Origin: Terriglobia bacterium
GTDB taxonomy: Bacteria; Acidobacteriota; Terriglobia; JAJPHL01; JAPKYU01
Direction: 5' to 3'
DNA length: 64,000 bases
Assembly (NCBI GenBank): GCA_965206645.1
Contig: CBDBKE010000002.1
Location: forward strand, 32,001-96,000
Below the pieces are notes generated by a model, which was not told the origin of the DNA, searched no databases, and saw only the letters and a list, made by a program, of their open reading frames with translations. Shown here piece by piece: positions 35,533 through 39,801 of the stretch. The number at the start of each line of letters is the position of its first letter. Position 1 is the stretch's first letter. Position numbers and translations under genes: made by a program.

Positions 35533-36122
35533 CACCAGCAGGACGTCCTCGCCAGGTTCTCAACCTGCCGAACTCGCTGACCCTGCTTCGGCTGGCCGTC
35601 CTTCCGCTGATCCTCTTTTTCCTGGTGAACGACGACCTGACGTGGGCGCTGCGGTTGCTTCTAGTTGCGGGCATCTCCGATGCCCTGGACGGCCTCCTAG
35701 CCCGCCGGCTCCGGCAAAAGACACAAGTGGGCAAGTACCTGGATCCGCTGGCCGACAAGCTGTTGCTCAGCTCTTGCTTTCTGGTTCTGGCCTGGAACGG
35801 GCGGGTGCCCTGGCTGGTGTCCGGGCTGGTGCTGGCTCGCGACGTTACCATTCTGGTGGCGGTGATGGTGCTGTTTCTGGCCGCCGGGATTCGTCCGTTC
35901 ACTCCCACGACCCTCGGCAAAGCCAACACGGCCGTGCAGATAGCCGCGATCTTTGCCGTTCTACTGGAGGCGGTCTACGGCTCCGGGTGGTTTCGCCAGG
36001 GGCGCGGAGTCCTCTTGCTGCTGACACCTGTGCTGGTTGTGGGAAGCGGCTTGCAGTACGCTCTGCTGACCGCGCGCAGGTTGCGGAGGCGCCCCAGCCC
36101 GCTACCTGCGGCTACCCGCTAG
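35529..36122 (+). CDS. CDP-alcohol phosphatidyltransferase (PgsA-like)
   Basis: NLPNSLTLLR and SDALDG.LAR...GKYLDPLADK motifs. Confidence 0.92.
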   Translation: MTPAGRPRQVLNLPNSLTLLRLAVLPLILFFLVNDDLTWALRLLLVAGISDALDGLLARRLRQKTQVGKYLDPLADKLLLSSCFLVLAWNGRVPWLVSGLVLARDVTILVAVMVLFLAAGIRPFTPTTLGKANTAVQIAAIFAVLLEAVYGSGWFRQGRGVLLLLTPVLVVGSGLQYALLTARRLRRRPSPLPAATR

Positions 36123-36163
36123 TTCTGGAGAGGAGAGAACCCCCTGGGACACTTGACCGAGAT

Positions 36164-36598
36164 TCAGCCGCCCGGGCCGTCGGCGGTGAGGTAGTTCTCC
36201 ATCGAATCCAGCTGCTGAGTCAGGTCCTCCACGCGGGTTTGGAGCAAGTTGCGGACGGAGAGAATGCCCACAACCCGGCCCTCGGAATTCAGGATGGGCA
36301 GGTGGCGAAAGTGACGCTCGATCATCACCCCCAAGGCTTCTCCAGCCGTCGTATCCGCGGTGGCCGACTCCACTGAGGCGCTCATTACGTCCATCATCTT
36401 GGTGGTCGCTGGATCGTGTCGAGCCAGCACAACCCGCAGCATCACGTCTCGTTCGGTAAAAATCCCCGCCAGCCGATCGCCTTGAACCACTGCTACCGCT
36501 CCCACCCGTTTGCTGACCATCACCTGGACGGCTTCCAGCACGGTTGTCGTCAAACTGACCACAGCTGGTGGTACGCCGGCAATTTTCAGGATCTCCAT
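36164..36598 (-). CDS. CBS-domain protein
   Basis: VGAVAVV..GIFTERD and FRHLPI...GILSVR motifs. Confidence 0.92.
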   Translation of the reverse strand: MEILKIAGVPPAVVSLTTTVLEAVQVMVSKRVGAVAVVQGDRLAGIFTERDVMLRVVLARHDPATTKMMDVMSASVESATADTTAGEALGVMIERHFRHLPILNSEGRVVGILSVRNLLQTRVEDLTQQLDSMENYLTADGPGG

Positions 36599-36718
36599 GG
36601 ATTAGAAGCCTTTCTCCGCTTGCCCCTCAGTGTAGTGGAACCGCCTGGGCCGGTAAAGACCATTCTGTGCGGGGCTTGTTCCATAACGGCACCTTATCCT
36701 ACTGATCAATTTTTCTCC

Positions 36719-36747
36719 TTGCAATCCTCGTGTGATTGTTCTACTCT
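36719..36747 (+). promoter_or_regulatory. Sigma70 promoter for the Cys leader and TSUP-cysH
   Basis: TTGCAA-N17-TACTCT. Confidence 0.7.
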
Positions 36748-36756
36748 ACTCGTGTC

Positions 36757-36822
36757 GTGATTGATTTAGCTAGTTCATTCCTGAGTAGCTGTTGTAGCCC
36801 GCCCATGTGCCGTGGCGGGTAG
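36757..36822 (+). CDS. Cys-containing attenuator leader peptide MIDLASSFLSSCCSPPMCRGG
   Basis: GTG 9 nt after the -10; TGT TGT and TGC codons placed on the first attenuator segment; lies upstream of sulfur-assimilation genes. Confidence 0.75.
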   Translation: MIDLASSFLSSCCSPPMCRGG

Positions 36823-36859
36823 TGCCTCCTTTTAGGTAGTTGGTTTCGCTTTAATTCCA

Positions 36860-36896
36860 GCCCGCCCGGTAACATCATGGGCGGGCATTTTGCTTT
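36860..36896 (+). terminator. Conditional (attenuator) terminator
   Basis: GCCCGCCC/GGGCGGGC stem followed by ATTTTGCTTT. Confidence 0.8.
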
Positions 36897-37124
36897 CCAG
36901 GGCCAGTCGAGAGCAACGCCCCCCGGACGGAAGCCAGCGGGACTTCTGCGGGGATGGATGAGGTTAGCAAACGAAGCTGTGCGGAATCGAAAACAGTCCA
37001 GAGGCCAGGACCAGCCCAGCGGTCGGCACCAGAGTGCTGGGCGCAGCCAGCCCGGCGCGGGCCGCTACCCGGGTCCGTTGGACGCCCAACGCATCCGGGA
37101 GCGGCATGAGATGGGAGCTGCTGC

Positions 37125-37925
37125 ATGAACGGTATCGGCGTCCTGATTGGCCTGGTTAGCGGAACTGTGGTAGGCGCCAGTGCCATTGGAAGCGGCTCCT
37201 TGGTGATTCCGCTGCTCTTGCTGTTCACCCCGGCGTCTGCGGGCACGGTCGTGGGGACCAGCGTGGCGCTGGCCACCGTGACCAAGCTCGCCGGTTACCT
37301 GTCCCATCGGCGGTTGGGGAACGTCCATCTGGGCCTGGGCCGGTGGCTCATCCTCGGCGCCGTGCCCGGGACGGCGGCTGCAGCCCTGTTGCTGTCCCGC
37401 GTGCAAGACGTCGTGCTGGTCAACGGTCAAGCGCGGCAACTATTTGGCCTGCTGCTCATCATGCTGGCACTTGTGCTGCTGGCCGCGACCGCGCGTCCCT
37501 TTAGCCTGGCTACTCCAGCACCACCCAGCGAGCAGCCGGCCAGCGAGCAGCCAGAACCTGTCGGCCGCGACATGCGCGTGTTTGCCTTATTGGTGGGCGC
37601 CGCCATTTCCTTTGCCGTAACGTTGACTTCGATTGGTAGTGGCGGCCTGTTGATGCTGGCGCTGCTGCTATGGCGGCCCGCCTGGCTGGGCCAGTTGGTG
37701 GGAACGGCCACCTTCTACGGCCTGATTGCCACACTGTTCGGTACGGTGGCCCACTTGGCTCTTGGAAACATTGATCTCTACTTGCTCGTGCCACTGGCGG
37801 CGGGCTCCATACCCGGGGTGCTGTTCGGCTCTCGGCTCACCCGGCGGATTCCTGAAGTCTACTACCAGACCGGTATTGCGGCCTTGACCCTGGCCTTGGG
37901 CCTGCGCCTGGCATGGGCGGCATGA
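37125..37925 (+). CDS. Sulfite exporter TauE/SafE (TSUP) family membrane protein
   Basis: Duplicated G...G.S.IGSG..L / LTSIGSGG halves, VGT motifs and GSIPGV..GS. Confidence 0.88.
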   Translation: MNGIGVLIGLVSGTVVGASAIGSGSLVIPLLLLFTPASAGTVVGTSVALATVTKLAGYLSHRRLGNVHLGLGRWLILGAVPGTAAAALLLSRVQDVVLVNGQARQLFGLLLIMLALVLLAATARPFSLATPAPPSEQPASEQPEPVGRDMRVFALLVGAAISFAVTLTSIGSGGLLMLALLLWRPAWLGQLVGTATFYGLIATLFGTVAHLALGNIDLYLLVPLAAGSIPGVLFGSRLTRRIPEVYYQTGIAALTLALGLRLAWAA

Positions 37926-37950
37926 GAGTCGCATACCGGAAGGAGCACTG

Positions 37951-38640
37951 ATGACCATCGCTTTGGACAACATTCCCCAACTGGCGATGCGGTTCGAAAC
38001 CGAACCGCCGGAGGCGCTGCTGGAGTTTGCCTATTCCCAGTTCGACGAGCGCATGGCGCTCGCCTGTAGCTTCGGCGCCGAAGATGTGGTGCTGGCCGAG
38101 ATGGCGGCGCGCGTCCATCCGGGCGCGCGCGTCTTCTACCTGGACACCGACTTCCTCTTTTCTGAGACCCATACCGTGCGCGAGCGCATTGCCGCGCAGT
38201 ACCCGCTGAAGATCGAAGCCTGCCGCCCGGCGCTGACGCCGGAGGAGCAGGCGTCGCGCTTCGGGGAAGCACTTTGGACCCGCCAGCCCAACCAATGCTG
38301 CGGCATACGCAAAGTCGAGCCGCTAACAGCTCACCTCTCCAAGCTGTCGGCCTGGATTACCGGCGTCCGCCGCGACCAGGCTCCCACGCGCGCGAACACG
38401 CGCAAGGTGGAGTGGGATGAAAAGTTCGGCCTGGTGAAGTTCAACCCCCTTGCGGACTGGACTTGGGATCGGGTCTGGGAACATATCCGGCTCCACAACG
38501 TCCCGTACAACGAAATGCACGACCACAACTACCCCAGCATCGGCTGCACCCACTGCACTCGCCAGGTGCTCCCAGGCGAGGACCCGCGGGCCGGGCGCTG
38601 GTCCGGCTCTGAGAAAACCGAGTGCGGCTTGCACAAGTAA
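37951..38640 (+). CDS. cysH: Adenosine 5'-phosphosulfate/PAPS reductase (4Fe-4S type)
   Basis: SFGAED, LDT..LF.ET, CCGIRKVEPL, WITGVRRDQ, SIGCTHCT and terminal ECGLH. Confidence 0.95.
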   Translation: MTIALDNIPQLAMRFETEPPEALLEFAYSQFDERMALACSFGAEDVVLAEMAARVHPGARVFYLDTDFLFSETHTVRERIAAQYPLKIEACRPALTPEEQASRFGEALWTRQPNQCCGIRKVEPLTAHLSKLSAWITGVRRDQAPTRANTRKVEWDEKFGLVKFNPLADWTWDRVWEHIRLHNVPYNEMHDHNYPSIGCTHCTRQVLPGEDPRAGRWSGSEKTECGLHK

Positions 38641-38898: not shown

Positions 38899-39801
38899 TC
38901 ACCCTTCACTCTTCAACAGCCTCGGGCAAAGCTCCCGGACCAGTTTCAGGAACGCCTCCATCACCGGGCAGATGTCCTTGTCTCGGTGGTGAATCAGGCC
39001 CAGCTCCCGCACCAGCTTCAGGCCTTCCAGCGGGATCAGGCGCAGCGTGCCGTTGGCTGCCTCCTGCGCCGCGAAGCTTCGGCTGATCAGGGAAACTCCC
39101 AGCCCGACAGCCACGAATTTCTTGATGGCCTCGACGCTGGCCAGCTCCAGCGAGACGCGCGGCTCCAGGCTGCGGTTGGCGAACACCCGTTCGAACAGGG
39201 CCCGAGTGCGCCCGGTGCGAGGGAAGATCAGCCGGTGATCGGCCAACTGTTCCACCGTCACTGACCGCTGGCTGGCCAGCAGGTGCCTCGGAGGCACAAT
39301 CACGACCAGCTCGTCGCGGAACAGGGGCAGCACCGCCAGGTCCTTCTCGTCCACCGGCAACGAGACCACAGCGAAATCTAGCGTGTTGGCCAGCACGCGC
39401 TCCACCAGCTTGCGGGTGAAGTTACGGTGAATCCGCAGGCGCACTTCCGGATAGCGGGCACCGAAGGCGGCAAACACCGGCGGCAGCACGTAGAGCGAGG
39501 TGGCTTCGTTGGCCCCCACCGCCAGCCGCCCGCGCGGCACGTGACGCATCCGTTCCAGAGCTTCCTTGGCCTGGCGGCGCAGCTCGGCCAGTTGCTGGCA
39601 GTGCTCCAGCAGGATGCGCCCCGCCGTTGTCAGCTGCACCTGCTTGCCAGTCCGGTGGAACAGCTTCTGTCCCAGCTCCTGCTCGAGCGAGCGCACCTGC
39701 TTGGAGATCGCCGGCTGAGTCCGGTAGAGATGCTCGGCGGCCCGCGAGAAGCTGTTGTGCTTGGCAATCTCGATGATTGTGTCTATCTGGTCAAAATCCA
39801 T
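38899..39801 (-). CDS. LysR-family transcriptional regulator
   Basis: SFSRAAEHLYRTQPAISKQVRSLE HTH and E.IKKFVAVGLG motif. Confidence 0.95.
   Translation of the reverse strand: MDFDQIDTIIEIAKHNSFSRAAEHLYRTQPAISKQVRSLEQELGQKLFHRTGKQVQLTTAGRILLEHCQQLAELRRQAKEALERMRHVPRGRLAVGANEATSLYVLPPVFAAFGARYPEVRLRIHRNFTRKLVERVLANTLDFAVVSLPVDEKDLAVLPLFRDELVVIVPPRHLLASQRSVTVEQLADHRLIFPRTGRTRALFERVFANRSLEPRVSLELASVEAIKKFVAVGLGVSLISRSFAAQEAANGTLRLIPLEGLKLVRELGLIHHRDKDICPVMEAFLKLVRELCPRLLKSEG

What the first reader, a model, noticed from the sequence alone, without database searches (positions are those of the whole stretch)
36719..36896. Cysteine-sensing ribosome-mediated transcription attenuator ahead of TSUP-cysH
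Seen: promoter TTGCAA-N17-TACTCT, then 9 nt later a GTG ORF encoding MIDLASSFLSSCCSPPMCRGG (36757-36822). It has no room for an SD, so it is near-leaderless. Four pairing segments follow: 1 GCCCGCCCATG (36797-36807, just after TGT TGT), 2 TGGCGGGT (36813-36820, at the stop), 3 GCCCGCCC (36860-36867) and 4 CATGGGCGGGC (36876-36886) plus a U-rich tail. Pairings 1:2, 2:3 and 3:4 are mutually exclusive, and 1:4 is a perfect 11 bp. Known: this is trp/thr-type attenuator logic, and Cys-codon leaderless sORFs regulate cysteine genes in mycobacteria. Inference: stalling at Cys-Cys covers segment 1 and lets the 2:3 antiterminator form, so a sulfur-anion transporter and APS reductase are induced when Cys-tRNA is short. 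I know of no description of an intrinsic-terminator Cys attenuator in Acidobacteria, and the ORF track misses it.
Basis: partly seen in the sequence, partly recalled or inferred. Interest (0 to 1): 0.9.

Follow-up and report, generated by a model that had tools for sequence, protein, structure and literature searches.

The report
Cysteine leader-peptide attenuator before TauE-cysH
A tiny cysteine-codon reading frame followed by a switchable terminator hairpin sits ahead of two sulfate-assimilation genes, and the same device recurs ahead of sulfur-assimilation operons across Terriglobia, so it most likely senses cysteine supply through ribosome stalling.

Summary
These hold a weak sigma-70-like promoter, a 21-codon GTG sORF (Cys-Cys, then a third Cys), four pairing segments and a U-tailed hairpin. 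They lie 238 nt upstream of TauE (37125-37925) and cysH (37951-38640).

- Two congeners keep the sORF in frame, with an in-frame 3-nt indel. Seven of 9 substitutions fall at third codon positions.
- Poly-Cys sORF plus intrinsic terminator occurs in 19 of 30 TauE loci from a 151-genome sample of the class.
- It occurs in 14 of 15 Acidobacteriota-labelled public loci. Among 65 loci from other phyla there were 0 convincing cases.
- In 18 alignable leaders both the terminator and an antiterminator inside the sORF show compensatory changes.
- Related leaders precede sat, cysH, cysDN and sulfite reductase.
- The window's own genome has a second copy before its sulfite reductase.

Weak points: equilibrium folding keeps the terminator formed even with a stalled ribosome, so the switch must be kinetic. 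No transcript ends or cysteine response were measured.

Cys-codon attenuators are already described or predicted. Mycobacteria have a translational type, and cysS has a terminator type in Rhodobacterales and Deinococcus. I therefore call this a new member of a known kind.

The parts
36719..36747 (+). Putative sigma-70-type promoter: TTGCAA (-35), 17 nt spacer, TACTCT (-10)
   Evidence: Sequence. The -10 is invariant and the -35 is TTGCAA or TTGAAA in three congeners. Other Terriglobia leaders carry TTGACA-N17/18-TAGAAT-like boxes 9-16 nt (some about 32 nt) before the sORF start, and one has TTGACA-N17-TACTCT. It is not listed by the consensus scan. Metatranscriptome contigs begin at 36763-36765 in 3 of 4 runs of one study, which is only a weak hint.
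36757..36822 (+). Leader sORF, GTG start, 21 codons, MIDLASSFLSSCCSPPMCRGG*, with no Shine-Dalgarno sequence
   Evidence: G003 keeps the frame with a +3 nt indel. G000 versus G003 substitutions by codon position are 1, 1 and 7.
36790..36795 (+). Tandem regulatory Cys codons TGT TGT. A third Cys codon, TGC, lies at 36808-36810 in the 1:2 loop.
   Evidence: The Cys-Cys pair is invariant in congeners. Homologous leaders have runs of 3-6 Cys codons.
36797..36807 (+). Segment 1, GCCCGCCCATG. It pairs with segment 2, or with segment 4 over 11 bp. A ribosome stalled at the Cys-Cys codons would cover it.
36813..36820 (+). Segment 2, TGGCGGGT, the 5' strand of the antiterminator. It overlaps the stop codon at 36820-36822.
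   Evidence: It is the best complement to the terminator's 5' arm within the region from the Cys codons to the terminator (-16.5 kcal/mol; 5 of 200 shuffles as good). The GGC to GGT change in G003 keeps a G.U pair.
36860..36886 (+). Intrinsic terminator hairpin (segments 3 and 4): GCCCGCCCG, 9-nt loop, TGGGCGGGC
   Evidence: -18.4 kcal/mol with 9 pairs. It is conserved in congeners, and G003 has a 10-bp stem with a 7-nt loop.
36887..36898 (+). U-rich tail, ATTTTGCTTTCC
   Evidence: Invariant in three congeners.
36899..37124 (+). Non-coding spacer / 5' UTR of TauE, with GGGAG 7 nt before the ATG
   Evidence: G003 lacks 108 nt and G001 has 18 nt extra. The 83-codon frame at 36877-37128 shows no third-position bias (8, 4, 8 and 3, 6, 6) and is broken in G003. 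There is no Pfam hit and no Rfam hit.
37125..37925 (+). TauE/SafE (TSUP) family membrane protein, the first regulated gene
   Evidence: Pfam PF01925, E = 2.4e-36.
37951..38640 (+). CysH-family (P)APS reductase, the second regulated gene
   Evidence: Pfam PF01507, E = 1.9e-50. NCBIfam NF002537 scores 265 bits against a cut-off of 154. CC, CTHC and ECGLH are seen.

Best explanation
This is a ribosome-mediated (leader-peptide) transcription attenuator that reports the supply of charged tRNA-Cys and controls the TauE-cysH sulfate-assimilation operon.

Proposed mechanism:
1. Transcription starts a few nucleotides before the GTG at 36757, and the SD-less sORF is translated while RNA polymerase moves on.
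2. When Cys-tRNA is plentiful, the ribosome runs to the stop codon at 36820-36822 and covers segment 2. Segment 3 then pairs with segment 4 and transcription stops at the U tract near 36890.
3. With no ribosome at all, either 1:2 + 3:4 or the nested 1:4 + 2:3 fold puts a G+C-rich stem against the U tract, so transcription also terminates.
4. When Cys-tRNA is scarce, the ribosome stalls with TGT TGT (36790-36795) in its A site and covers segment 1. Segment 2 stays free and pairs with segment 3 as soon as segment 3 is made. Segment 4 then has no partner, because segment 1 is occupied and segment 3 is paired, and polymerase reads through into TauE and cysH.

Shown here: the parts, their conservation, the covariation of terminator and antiterminator in relatives, and the restriction to sulfate-assimilation operons.

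Inferred: the transcription start, translation of the sORF, the stalling geometry, the kinetic choice between 2:3 and 3:4, and the response to cysteine.
For: 1. Anatomy as described, with a fold z of -4.68.
2. The sORF behaves as coding. Three congeners keep it open with an in-frame 3-nt indel. G000 versus G003 substitutions by codon position are 1, 1 and 7. The TauE control gives 0, 0, 3. The neighbouring non-coding frame gives 8, 4, 8.
3. In G006, another genus of the family (TauE 64% identical), the leader has a different sequence but the same build: MIMFRPVGSQPRMACCCCRRCWCGLTVSTG*, then AGCCCGCC-N13-GGCGGGCT and a T run.
4. Of the 30 best TauE loci from 151 genomes of the class, 19 have a sORF with two or more consecutive Cys codons followed by a terminator, and 11 have none. 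One of the 19, L039, is from the unpublished genome G096; without it the count is 18 of 29.
5. Of 80 named public loci, 14 of the 15 labelled Acidobacteriota/Terriglobia have it. Among the 65 from other phyla, only 2 were flagged. Both had a bare Cys-Cys and a weak hairpin.
6. In all 17 leaders tested, the best complement to the terminator's 5' arm lies inside the sORF. It starts 16-38 nt after the first Cys codon and ends before the stop, or in the window's genus just over it. In 9 of 17 leaders, 5 or fewer of 200 shuffles did as well.
7. Covariation in 18 aligned leaders. The antiterminator's 9 pairs are 89.5% paired, against 25-60% when slid. Eleven cells changed on both sides, and 0-1 of 500 shuffles reached this. 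The terminator's 14 pairs are 95.2% paired, with 15 such cells.
8. Gene context. A covariance model of these leaders found further copies. Pfam shows sat, cysH, cysD-cysN and sulfite reductase downstream of those copies.
9. The window's own genome has a second leader before its sulfite reductase at G000:C2:341425-341582: VQFGRRELRLCCPTPGCCCPCGRLSGGRFVS* plus a -21.5 kcal/mol terminator. Of 11 distinct Cys-Cys sORFs with a terminator in the 4.4 Mb genome, 2 are these two.
10. The leaders use TGT for 117 of 128 Cys codons. TGT is 975 of 4182 Cys codons (23%) in long ORFs of the window's genome.
11. RNA-library contigs from one study start at 36763-36765 in 3 of 4 runs and run across the terminator into TauE. 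This is a weak hint only.
Against: - Equilibrium folding with the ribosome footprint masked does not remove the terminator. In the window, P(3:4) is 0.54, 0.95 and 0.97 for a stall at Cys 1, 2 and 3. In the 14 leaders outside the window's genus it stays at 0.72 or more in every state. The switch works only if the 2:3 pairing forms first and persists.
- The window has only two adjacent Cys codons, and a stall at the third would cover segment 2.
- The promoter matches the consensus poorly and was not picked up by the scan.
- The covariance model built from the best-aligned group does not hit the window's genome or its family (0 of 6). The link to those leaders is therefore by architecture and gene context, not alignable sequence.
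- A conserved 1:2 hairpin could not be shown in that group: mean pairing probability was 0.54, against 0.41 with shuffled upstream sequence.
- Eleven of 30 TauE loci lack the leader.
- Contigs cannot show transcript starts, ends or levels, and DNA may be present in those libraries.
- No experiment exists.
Confidence: 0.85

Rival explanations
1. It is a translational attenuator of the mycobacterial type. The sORF region pairs with the TauE ribosome-binding site, and stalling at the Cys codons unmasks that site. The hairpin with a U tract would play no regulatory part.
For: Part of the sORF (CCCAU and GCCGU within 36798-36815) is complementary to AUGGG and GCGGC at 37101-37115, which overlaps the GGGAG box. 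Duplex energy is -28.9 against -21.9 +/- 3.3, with 5 of 200 shuffles as good. With a narrower window it is -27.1, with 13 of 200. The mycobacterial precedent works this way (passages read).
Against: - The pairing partners are about 300 nt apart.
- No compensatory change is seen in congeners.
- Across 14 leaders the sORF-to-SD duplex is not consistently better than shuffles (mean z = -1.1). Only 2 were clearly better, apart from one whose chosen start lies inside the terminator.
- Every leader carries a strong terminator with a U tract, which the mycobacterial elements lack.
Confidence: 0.05
2. The sORF is an independent gene for a small Cys-rich peptide, for example a metal- or redox-active one, with its own terminator. 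TauE-cysH would be expressed from a separate promoter in the spacer.
For: The frame is conserved and evolves as coding. The terminator is strong. The 226-nt spacer could hold a promoter.
Against: - Peptide sequences are not conserved between genera apart from the Cys run and the residues encoded by the antiterminator strand.
- The sORF always lies on the same strand directly upstream of sulfate-assimilation genes.
- The segment inside the sORF covaries with the terminator arm.
- The spacer is variable, with 108 nt absent in G003.
- RNA-library contigs bridge the terminator into TauE (weak).
Confidence: 0.05
3. The terminator is controlled by a metabolite-binding RNA or by a protein, for example the neighbouring LysR regulator or the divergent CBS-pair protein. 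The Cys codons would be incidental.
For: A LysR-family gene (38899-39801, minus strand) and a CBS-pair gene (36164-36598, minus strand) flank the operon. The CBS gene is conserved next to the leader in 4 of 4 loci of the family.
Against: - No Rfam family matches at E up to 10, beyond chance-level hits.
- The only features shared across families are the Cys run, the in-frame stop, the antiterminator strand and the terminator.
- The CBS and LysR neighbours are not found beside the leaders outside the family.
Confidence: 0.04

Closest known systems
Classical leader-peptide attenuators of enterobacterial trp, his, thr, leu, pheA and ilv operons (recalled from textbook knowledge; described in the introduction of 10.1101/834739, passages read)
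   Same: A short ORF is enriched in codons for the pathway's end product. The pairings 1:2, 2:3 and 3:4 are mutually exclusive. An intrinsic terminator precedes the first biosynthetic gene.
   Different: - The regulatory amino acid is cysteine.
- There is no Shine-Dalgarno sequence, and the start lies 9 nt after the -10 box (near-leaderless).
- Segment 4 can also pair with segment 1 (11 bp). Read-through therefore needs segment 1 covered as well as segment 3 sequestered.
- The phylum is Acidobacteriota.
Polycysteine leaderless sORFs of mycobacteria (Canestrari et al. 2020, 10.1101/834739; passages read)
   Same: Cys-codon runs in SD-less sORFs at the 5' end of operons for cysteine or sulfur metabolism. 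Both are proposed to sense charged tRNA-Cys by stalling.
   Different: The mycobacterial element acts on translation, with the Cys tract pairing with the downstream SD. The authors report that it does not act by transcription termination. Here there is a strong intrinsic terminator with a covarying antiterminator, and no consistent SD pairing.
uORFC-8-2 motif upstream of cysS in Rhodobacterales (Brewer et al. 2021, PMC8632094; passages read)
   Same: A uORF with two tandem Cys codons, stems and a terminal U run. The authors interpret it as ribosome-mediated attenuation that senses Cys-tRNA.
   Different: It controls the tRNA synthetase gene, not the biosynthetic pathway. It occurs in Alphaproteobacteria. 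In it the Cys codons lie inside the first stem. It is a bioinformatic prediction only. I had no model of it to test against the window, and Rfam gave no hit.
Leaderless 10-codon leader peptide with two Cys codons before cysS of Deinococcus deserti (de Groot et al. 2014, PMC4007540; passages read)
   Same: A leaderless sORF with Cys codons, proposed to act in transcription attenuation.
   Different: The target is cysS. No structure or conservation analysis appears in the passages I read.
Candidate Cys leader peptides before cys/cbs operons of Actinobacteria (Seliverstov et al. 2005, PMC1262725; passages read)
   Same: Runs of Cys codons near the end of short ORFs upstream of cysteine genes.
   Different: The authors found no terminators and suggested Rho. 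Here terminators are present in every positive locus.

Membership tests
Ribosome-mediated (leader-peptide) transcription attenuator | A short ORF in the 5' leader enriched in codons for the regulatory amino acid | tested here: met
   Three Cys in 21 codons, two of them adjacent. Cys is about 1% of codons in long ORFs of the genome. Homologous leaders have 3-6 consecutive Cys codons.
Ribosome-mediated (leader-peptide) transcription attenuator | An intrinsic terminator between the sORF and the first structural gene | tested here: met
   A 9-bp G+C-rich stem of -18.4 kcal/mol followed by AUUUUGCUUU. It is present after the sORF in all 19 positive TauE loci and 14 public loci.
Ribosome-mediated (leader-peptide) transcription attenuator | An antiterminator pairing that excludes the terminator and involves sORF sequence | tested here: met
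   In the window, 2:3 has 7 of 8 pairs and the region folds at -20.2 kcal/mol. In 18 relatives the equivalent helix is 89.5% paired with compensatory changes. It is not favoured at equilibrium.
Ribosome-mediated (leader-peptide) transcription attenuator | Regulatory codons placed so that a stalled ribosome frees the antiterminator strand, while a ribosome at the stop codon blocks it | tested here: inconclusive
   The geometry fits. Segment 1 begins 2 nt after the Cys-Cys codons, and segment 2 overlaps the stop codon. The footprint sizes used are recalled values. Masked equilibrium folds give only partial loss of the terminator, P = 0.54 at Cys 1.
Ribosome-mediated (leader-peptide) transcription attenuator | The controlled genes belong to the pathway of the sensed amino acid | tested here: met
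   TauE plus CysH in the window. Sat, cysH, cysDN and sulfite reductase lie behind related leaders.
Ribosome-mediated (leader-peptide) transcription attenuator | The sORF is translated, and read-through responds to the amino acid | not testable with these tools
   Only indirect support: third-position bias and an in-frame indel. The RNA data were available only as contigs.
Mycobacterial polycysteine leaderless-sORF translational attenuators | The Cys tract at the 3' end of the sORF pairs with the Shine-Dalgarno region of the next gene, and no terminator is involved | tested here: not met
   A terminator is present. The Cys codons themselves are not in the predicted sORF-to-SD duplex. That duplex is only marginally better than shuffles in the window and not in most relatives.
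Rfam-curated cis-regulatory RNAs (riboswitches, T-box, known leaders) | A match to a curated covariance model | tested here: not met
   Across 36000-38000 on both strands at E up to 10 there were only 4 chance-level hits, all far below their gathering scores.

The most novel reading that the evidence does not exclude
Terriglobia may run most of assimilatory sulfate reduction (sat, cysDN, cysH, sulfite reductase, TauE-type transporter) as a regulon of classical Cys-tRNA-sensing transcription attenuators. These would be built on SD-less or near-leaderless poly-Cys sORFs that use the rare, wobble-read UGU codon. That would be the first terminator-based attenuator for cysteine biosynthesis itself. 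It would take the place that CysB-type activators, S-box or T-box RNAs hold in other phyla.
Probability: 0.6. Interest if true: 0.7.

Novelty: new member of a known kind. Interest (0 to 1): 0.6.

Why it matters
Leader-peptide attenuation is textbook for Trp, His, Thr, Leu, Phe and Ile/Val. For cysteine biosynthesis I found only terminator-less elements described: candidate leader peptides in Actinobacteria and the translational attenuators of mycobacteria. Terminator-type Cys attenuators are predicted only for cysS.

This window, with more than 30 related leaders, gives a clear terminator-type cysteine attenuator with a covarying antiterminator. It lies in Acidobacteriota, a soil phylum whose gene regulation is almost unstudied.

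Practical consequences:
- It offers a way to annotate sulfur-assimilation operons and unannotated sORFs in Terriglobia genomes.
- It flags TauE-family genes as likely sulfate or sulfite carriers of the pathway.
- It provides a compact, testable cysteine-responsive switch.

Tried and rejected
- DNA search with the leader in 61 related genomes. Only the two congeners G001 and G003 match; all other hits are short chance matches with E above 0.001.
- Rfam at permissive threshold found nothing relevant.
- The consensus promoter and terminator scan lists neither element.
- Equilibrium folding with ribosome masks does not reproduce a switch. I therefore do not claim thermodynamic control.
- A conserved 1:2 hairpin enclosing the Cys run looked attractive in MFE folds of the 18-leader group. 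A fixed-column helix did not hold across the alignment. Pairing was no better than with shuffled upstream sequence, 0.54 against 0.41, and no leader was individually significant. I dropped it as a claim.
- The 83-codon frame at 36877-37128 ends in an ATGA overlap with TauE, and its indels are multiples of three. I rejected it as a gene because it shows no third-position bias and has a lost start and a stop in G003. It also has no Pfam hit.
- A strict-stem scan of the window's genome gave 18 rows from 2007 candidates and missed the bulged terminator of the second leader. An RNAfold-based rescan found it.
- A genome-wide list of runs of three or more TGY codons was uninformative. The 685 hits are mostly CTG-repeat coding sequence read out of frame.
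- sat in the window's genome (C4:163852-164997) shows no leader in the 500 nt upstream.
- One covariance-model hit, L176 in G062 (E = 0.003), has no Cys run and is taken as false.
- RNA-library contigs leave 36613-36762 uncovered in some runs. I do not read this as a finding.
- Structure prediction, complex prediction and the protein-homology searches were not needed and were not run.
- Supplementary files of the papers were not opened. Tables of predicted attenuators or uORF motifs there could hold Acidobacteriota examples that I did not see.
Full report
**What is in the sequence**

The finding's coordinates are exact.
- TTGCAA lies at 36719-36724, followed by 17 nt, TACTCT at 36742-36747, and 9 nt.
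- A GTG-initiated sORF at 36757-36822 encodes MIDLASSFLSSCCSPPMCRGG*.
- Segments follow: GCCCGCCCATG (1, 36797-36807), TGGCGGGT (2, 36813-36820), GCCCGCCC (3, 36860-36867) and CATGGGCGGGC (4, 36876-36886), then ATTTTGCTTTCC.

Pairing and energies:
- 1:2 forms 7 of 8 pairs; the hairpin is -13.4 kcal/mol.
- 2:3 forms 7 of 8 pairs; the region is -20.2 kcal/mol.
- 3:4 forms 9 pairs, -18.4 kcal/mol.
- 1:4 forms 11 of 11 pairs.

The 153-nt leader folds at -58.8 kcal/mol against -42.75 +/- 3.43 for shuffles (z = -4.68; 0 of 200 as good). The simple consensus scan lists neither promoter nor terminator. The hexamers match at 7 of 12 positions, and the loop is 9 nt where that scan allows 8. Rfam has nothing here.

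**Surroundings**

- Downstream on the same strand lie a TauE/SafE (TSUP) membrane protein (37125-37925; PF01925, E = 2.4e-36) and a CysH-family reductase (37951-38640; PF01507, E = 1.9e-50).
- CysH passes the NCBIfam cut-offs for phosphoadenylyl-sulfate reductase. It falls just below the thioredoxin-dependent APS-reductase cut-off, 231.5 against 235.3.
- It carries CC, CTHC and ECGLH. From memory these mark the iron-sulfur APS-reductase type, so 'APS reductase' is likely but not settled.
- A CBS-pair gene (36164-36598) diverges from the leader, and a LysR-family gene (38899-39801) converges on cysH.
- The 226 nt between the U tract and the TauE ATG are non-coding. The 83-codon frame there shows no third-position bias and is broken in a congener. 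G003 lacks 108 nt of this stretch and G001 has 18 nt extra.

**Close relatives**

Only two congeners share the leader at the DNA level: G001 at 91% and G003 at 83%.
- In G003 the sORF reads MIDFARSLLSMYCCSPPMCRGG*. It has an in-frame 3-nt insertion, and GGC to GGT in segment 2 keeps a G.U pair.
- Substitutions between G000 and G003 fall 1, 1 and 7 on codon positions 1, 2 and 3. This resembles the TauE control (0, 0, 3) and differs from the spacer (8, 4, 8). The sORF therefore evolves as a translated frame.
- The 11-bp 1:4 pairing drops to 10 of 11 in G003, while 3:4 grows to 10 bp. The perfect 1:4 may be a by-product of segments 1 and 3 being alike.

**Distant relatives**

I searched 151 genomes of the class with the TauE protein. 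Forty-nine have a match, and I examined the 30 best loci.
- Nineteen of the 30 carry, upstream on the same strand, a sORF with two or more consecutive Cys codons followed by an intrinsic terminator. Eleven carry none.
- One positive locus, L039, is from the unpublished genome G096. Without it the count is 18 of 29.
- In G006, another genus of the window's family, the leader has an unrelated sequence but the same build: MIMFRPVGSQPRMACCCCRRCWCGLTVSTG*, then AGCCCGCC-N13-GGCGGGCT and a T run.
- Other families have MCCCC, MACCCMCCC, AMCCCCCCICC and similar runs.
- CysH follows TauE in 19 of the 30 loci, including 14 of the 19 with a leader.

A scan of named public genomes returned 80 loci.
- All 13 of the best matches are Terriglobia or Acidobacteriota MAGs, and all 13 have the leader.
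- So does a Candidatus Acidiferrales locus, L135, whose peptide (...RSCCSPCMGGV...) resembles the window's. That makes 14 of 15 Acidobacteriota-labelled loci.
- Of the 65 loci from other phyla, 2 were flagged. Both had a bare Cys-Cys and a weak hairpin.
- One class-level relative, G054, coincides in coordinates and sequence with a record titled 'Terriglobia bacterium'. This places the window in that class.

**How rare is this by chance?**

In the window's own 4.4 Mb genome, 2298 short frames contain Cys-Cys. Only 11 distinct ones are followed by a hairpin of -14 kcal/mol or better plus a T run. Two of those 11 are the window's leader and a second leader described below.

**Structure**

- In all 17 leaders tested, the sequence most complementary to the terminator's 5' arm lies inside the sORF. 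It starts 16-38 nt after the first Cys codon and ends before the stop codon, or in the window's genus just over it. In 9 of the 17, 5 or fewer of 200 shuffles did as well.
- Eighteen leaders from one large group could be aligned.
- In that alignment the antiterminator helix (9 pairs) is 89.5% paired, against 25-60% when the partner is slid by 1-3 columns. It has 2 pairs and 11 cells changed on both sides, and 0 or 1 of 500 shuffles reached this.
- The terminator (14 pairs) is 95.2% paired, with 4 pairs and 15 cells changed on both sides.
- The conserved Ser-Gly or Cys-Gly-Gly residues after the Cys run are the reading of this RNA strand.

**Promoters and start codons**

Most leaders have TTGACA-N17/18-TAGAAT-like boxes 9-16 nt before the sORF start codon. 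One family has about 32 nt. Most show no obvious Shine-Dalgarno sequence. In the window the gap is 9 nt, and in the genome's second leader it is 10 nt. Very short or absent 5' leaders are therefore plausible but unmapped.

Contigs from four metatranscriptome runs of one study begin at 36763, 36765, 36806 and 36763 and continue across the terminator to 37178 or 37378. The contigs of the CBS gene end at 36610-36724. Contigs cannot prove starts, and DNA may be present in those libraries, so I count this only as a weak hint.

**Regulon**

A covariance model of the 18 leaders matched 40 of the 151 class genomes, including second loci in several of them. These tallies include the unpublished genomes G096 and G077. 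Genes directly downstream of the full-length matches I examined are as follows:
- cysH (L145);
- ATP sulfurylase (L150, L152, and L038 ahead of TauE);
- cysD-cysN (L175);
- sulfite reductase (L157, L171, L174);
- in one case a beta-carbonic-anhydrase-like gene (L148).

The window's own genome has a second leader outside the window, ahead of its sulfite reductase at G000:C2:341633-343882. It consists of TTGACA-N18-GAGAAT, 10 nt, and a GTG sORF starting at 341425 that encodes VQFGRRELRLCCPTPGCCCPCGRLSGGRFVS*. A bulged terminator of -21.5 kcal/mol lies at 341548-341582, followed by UUUUCGUU.

The leaders use TGT for 117 of 128 Cys codons. TGT is 23% of Cys codons (975 of 4182) in long ORFs of the window's genome. 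Codon usage in the other genomes was not measured.

**Mechanism and its weak points**

The parts fit the classical scheme.
- A ribosome stalled at TGT TGT covers segment 1 and leaves segment 2 free to capture segment 3.
- A ribosome at the stop codon covers segment 2, so 3:4 forms.
- Untranslated RNA terminates through either 1:2 + 3:4 or the nested 1:4 + 2:3 fold, which is the MFE.
- Stepwise folds show 1:2 persisting until segment 3 is out. The MFE switches to an extended 2:3 at 36875.

Against this, equilibrium folds with the footprint masked keep the terminator. In the window, P is 0.54, 0.95 and 0.97 for a stall at Cys 1, 2 and 3. In the 14 leaders outside the window's genus it is 0.72 or more in every state. 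As in other attenuators, the decision would have to be kinetic, which I could not test. In the 18-leader group the stop codon lies well beyond the antiterminator strand. A 1:2 hairpin that would explain termination after ribosome passage is not statistically supported there.

**Rival readings**

- A mycobacterial-style SD-masking mechanism has a hint in the window. The sORF-to-SD duplex is -28.9 against -21.9 +/- 3.3, with 5 of 200 shuffles as good. It is not general: mean z across 14 leaders is -1.1. It also does not explain the terminators.
- A free-standing Cys-rich peptide gene does not explain the covariation with the terminator arm or the exclusive gene context.
- A riboswitch or protein-controlled terminator has no support from Rfam or from conserved neighbours outside the family.

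**What is known**

I read passages only, not whole papers or supplements.
- Canestrari et al. 2020 describe polycysteine leaderless sORFs in mycobacteria that act on translation, not termination. They state that uORF-mediated attenuation for cysteine had not been described.
- Seliverstov et al. 2005 predicted Cys leader peptides without terminators in Actinobacteria.
- de Groot et al. 2014 proposed a leaderless two-Cys leader peptide before cysS of Deinococcus deserti.
- Brewer et al. 2021 describe uORFC-8-2, a two-Cys uORF with an intrinsic terminator before cysS in Rhodobacterales.
- Naville and Gautheret 2010 note that predicted attenuators in Acidobacteria are almost all unannotated.
- Four full-text searches found no description of a Cys attenuator in Acidobacteria or before sulfate-assimilation genes with a terminator.
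- The library lacks most subscription journals, and supplements were closed, so absence from print is not proven.

**Verdict**

This is a cysteine leader-peptide transcription attenuator. It is one of a large and apparently undescribed set in Terriglobia that precedes sulfate-assimilation operons. It is a new member of a well-known kind of regulator, not a new kind.

Noticed in passing
G000:C2:341386-341590 (the window's genome, outside the window): A second Cys leader lies ahead of the sulfite reductase gene at C2:341633-343882. It has TTGACA-N18-GAGAAT, 10 nt, a GTG sORF encoding VQFGRRELRLCCPTPGCCCPCGRLSGGRFVS*, and a bulged terminator of -21.5 kcal/mol with a U tract.
   Followed up: yes
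Loci L145, L148, L150, L152, L157, L171, L174, L175, L038: Related poly-Cys leaders precede cysH, sat, cysD-cysN and sulfite reductase, and once a beta-carbonic-anhydrase-like gene. Leaders of the sulfite-reductase type end in ...P(A/T)CGG*.
   Followed up: partly
Leaders in L031-L073 and L135: Cys codons in the leaders are TGT in 117 of 128 cases. TGT is only 23% of Cys codons in long ORFs of the window's genome. This may be slow wobble decoding or avoidance of structure. Codon usage in the other genomes was not measured.
   Followed up: partly
Alignment A4/A5 columns about 55-90 (L035-L073 group): Between the antiterminator strand and the stop codon there is a conserved GGAGAU(A/G)A...ACUUGUAA block. 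It reads as ...(S/P)E(I/M)(T/N)xL*. Its role is unexplained; it might be a pause site, part of a structure, or a peptide effect.
   Followed up: no
window 36798-36815 with 37101-37115: Part of the sORF is complementary to the region holding the TauE ribosome-binding site. The duplex is -28.9 kcal/mol, and 5 of 200 shuffles are as good. It is not general among relatives.
   Followed up: partly
window 36993-37100: The spacer between terminator and TauE varies by whole blocks within the genus. G003 lacks 108 nt, and G001 has an 18-nt tandem duplication.
   Followed up: partly
window 36164-36598 (minus strand) and 38899-39801 (minus strand): A CBS-pair protein gene diverges from the leader and is kept there in all 4 loci of the family. 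A LysR-family regulator converges on cysH but reaches no specific NCBIfam cut-off. Either could add a second layer of control.
   Followed up: no
G000, many sites (for example C1:372377, C1:301864, C2:102986, C2:322154, C4:1278615): The genome-wide codon-run listing showed the same out-of-frame peptide strings at well over a dozen places. This points to multi-copy mobile elements in this genome.
   Followed up: no
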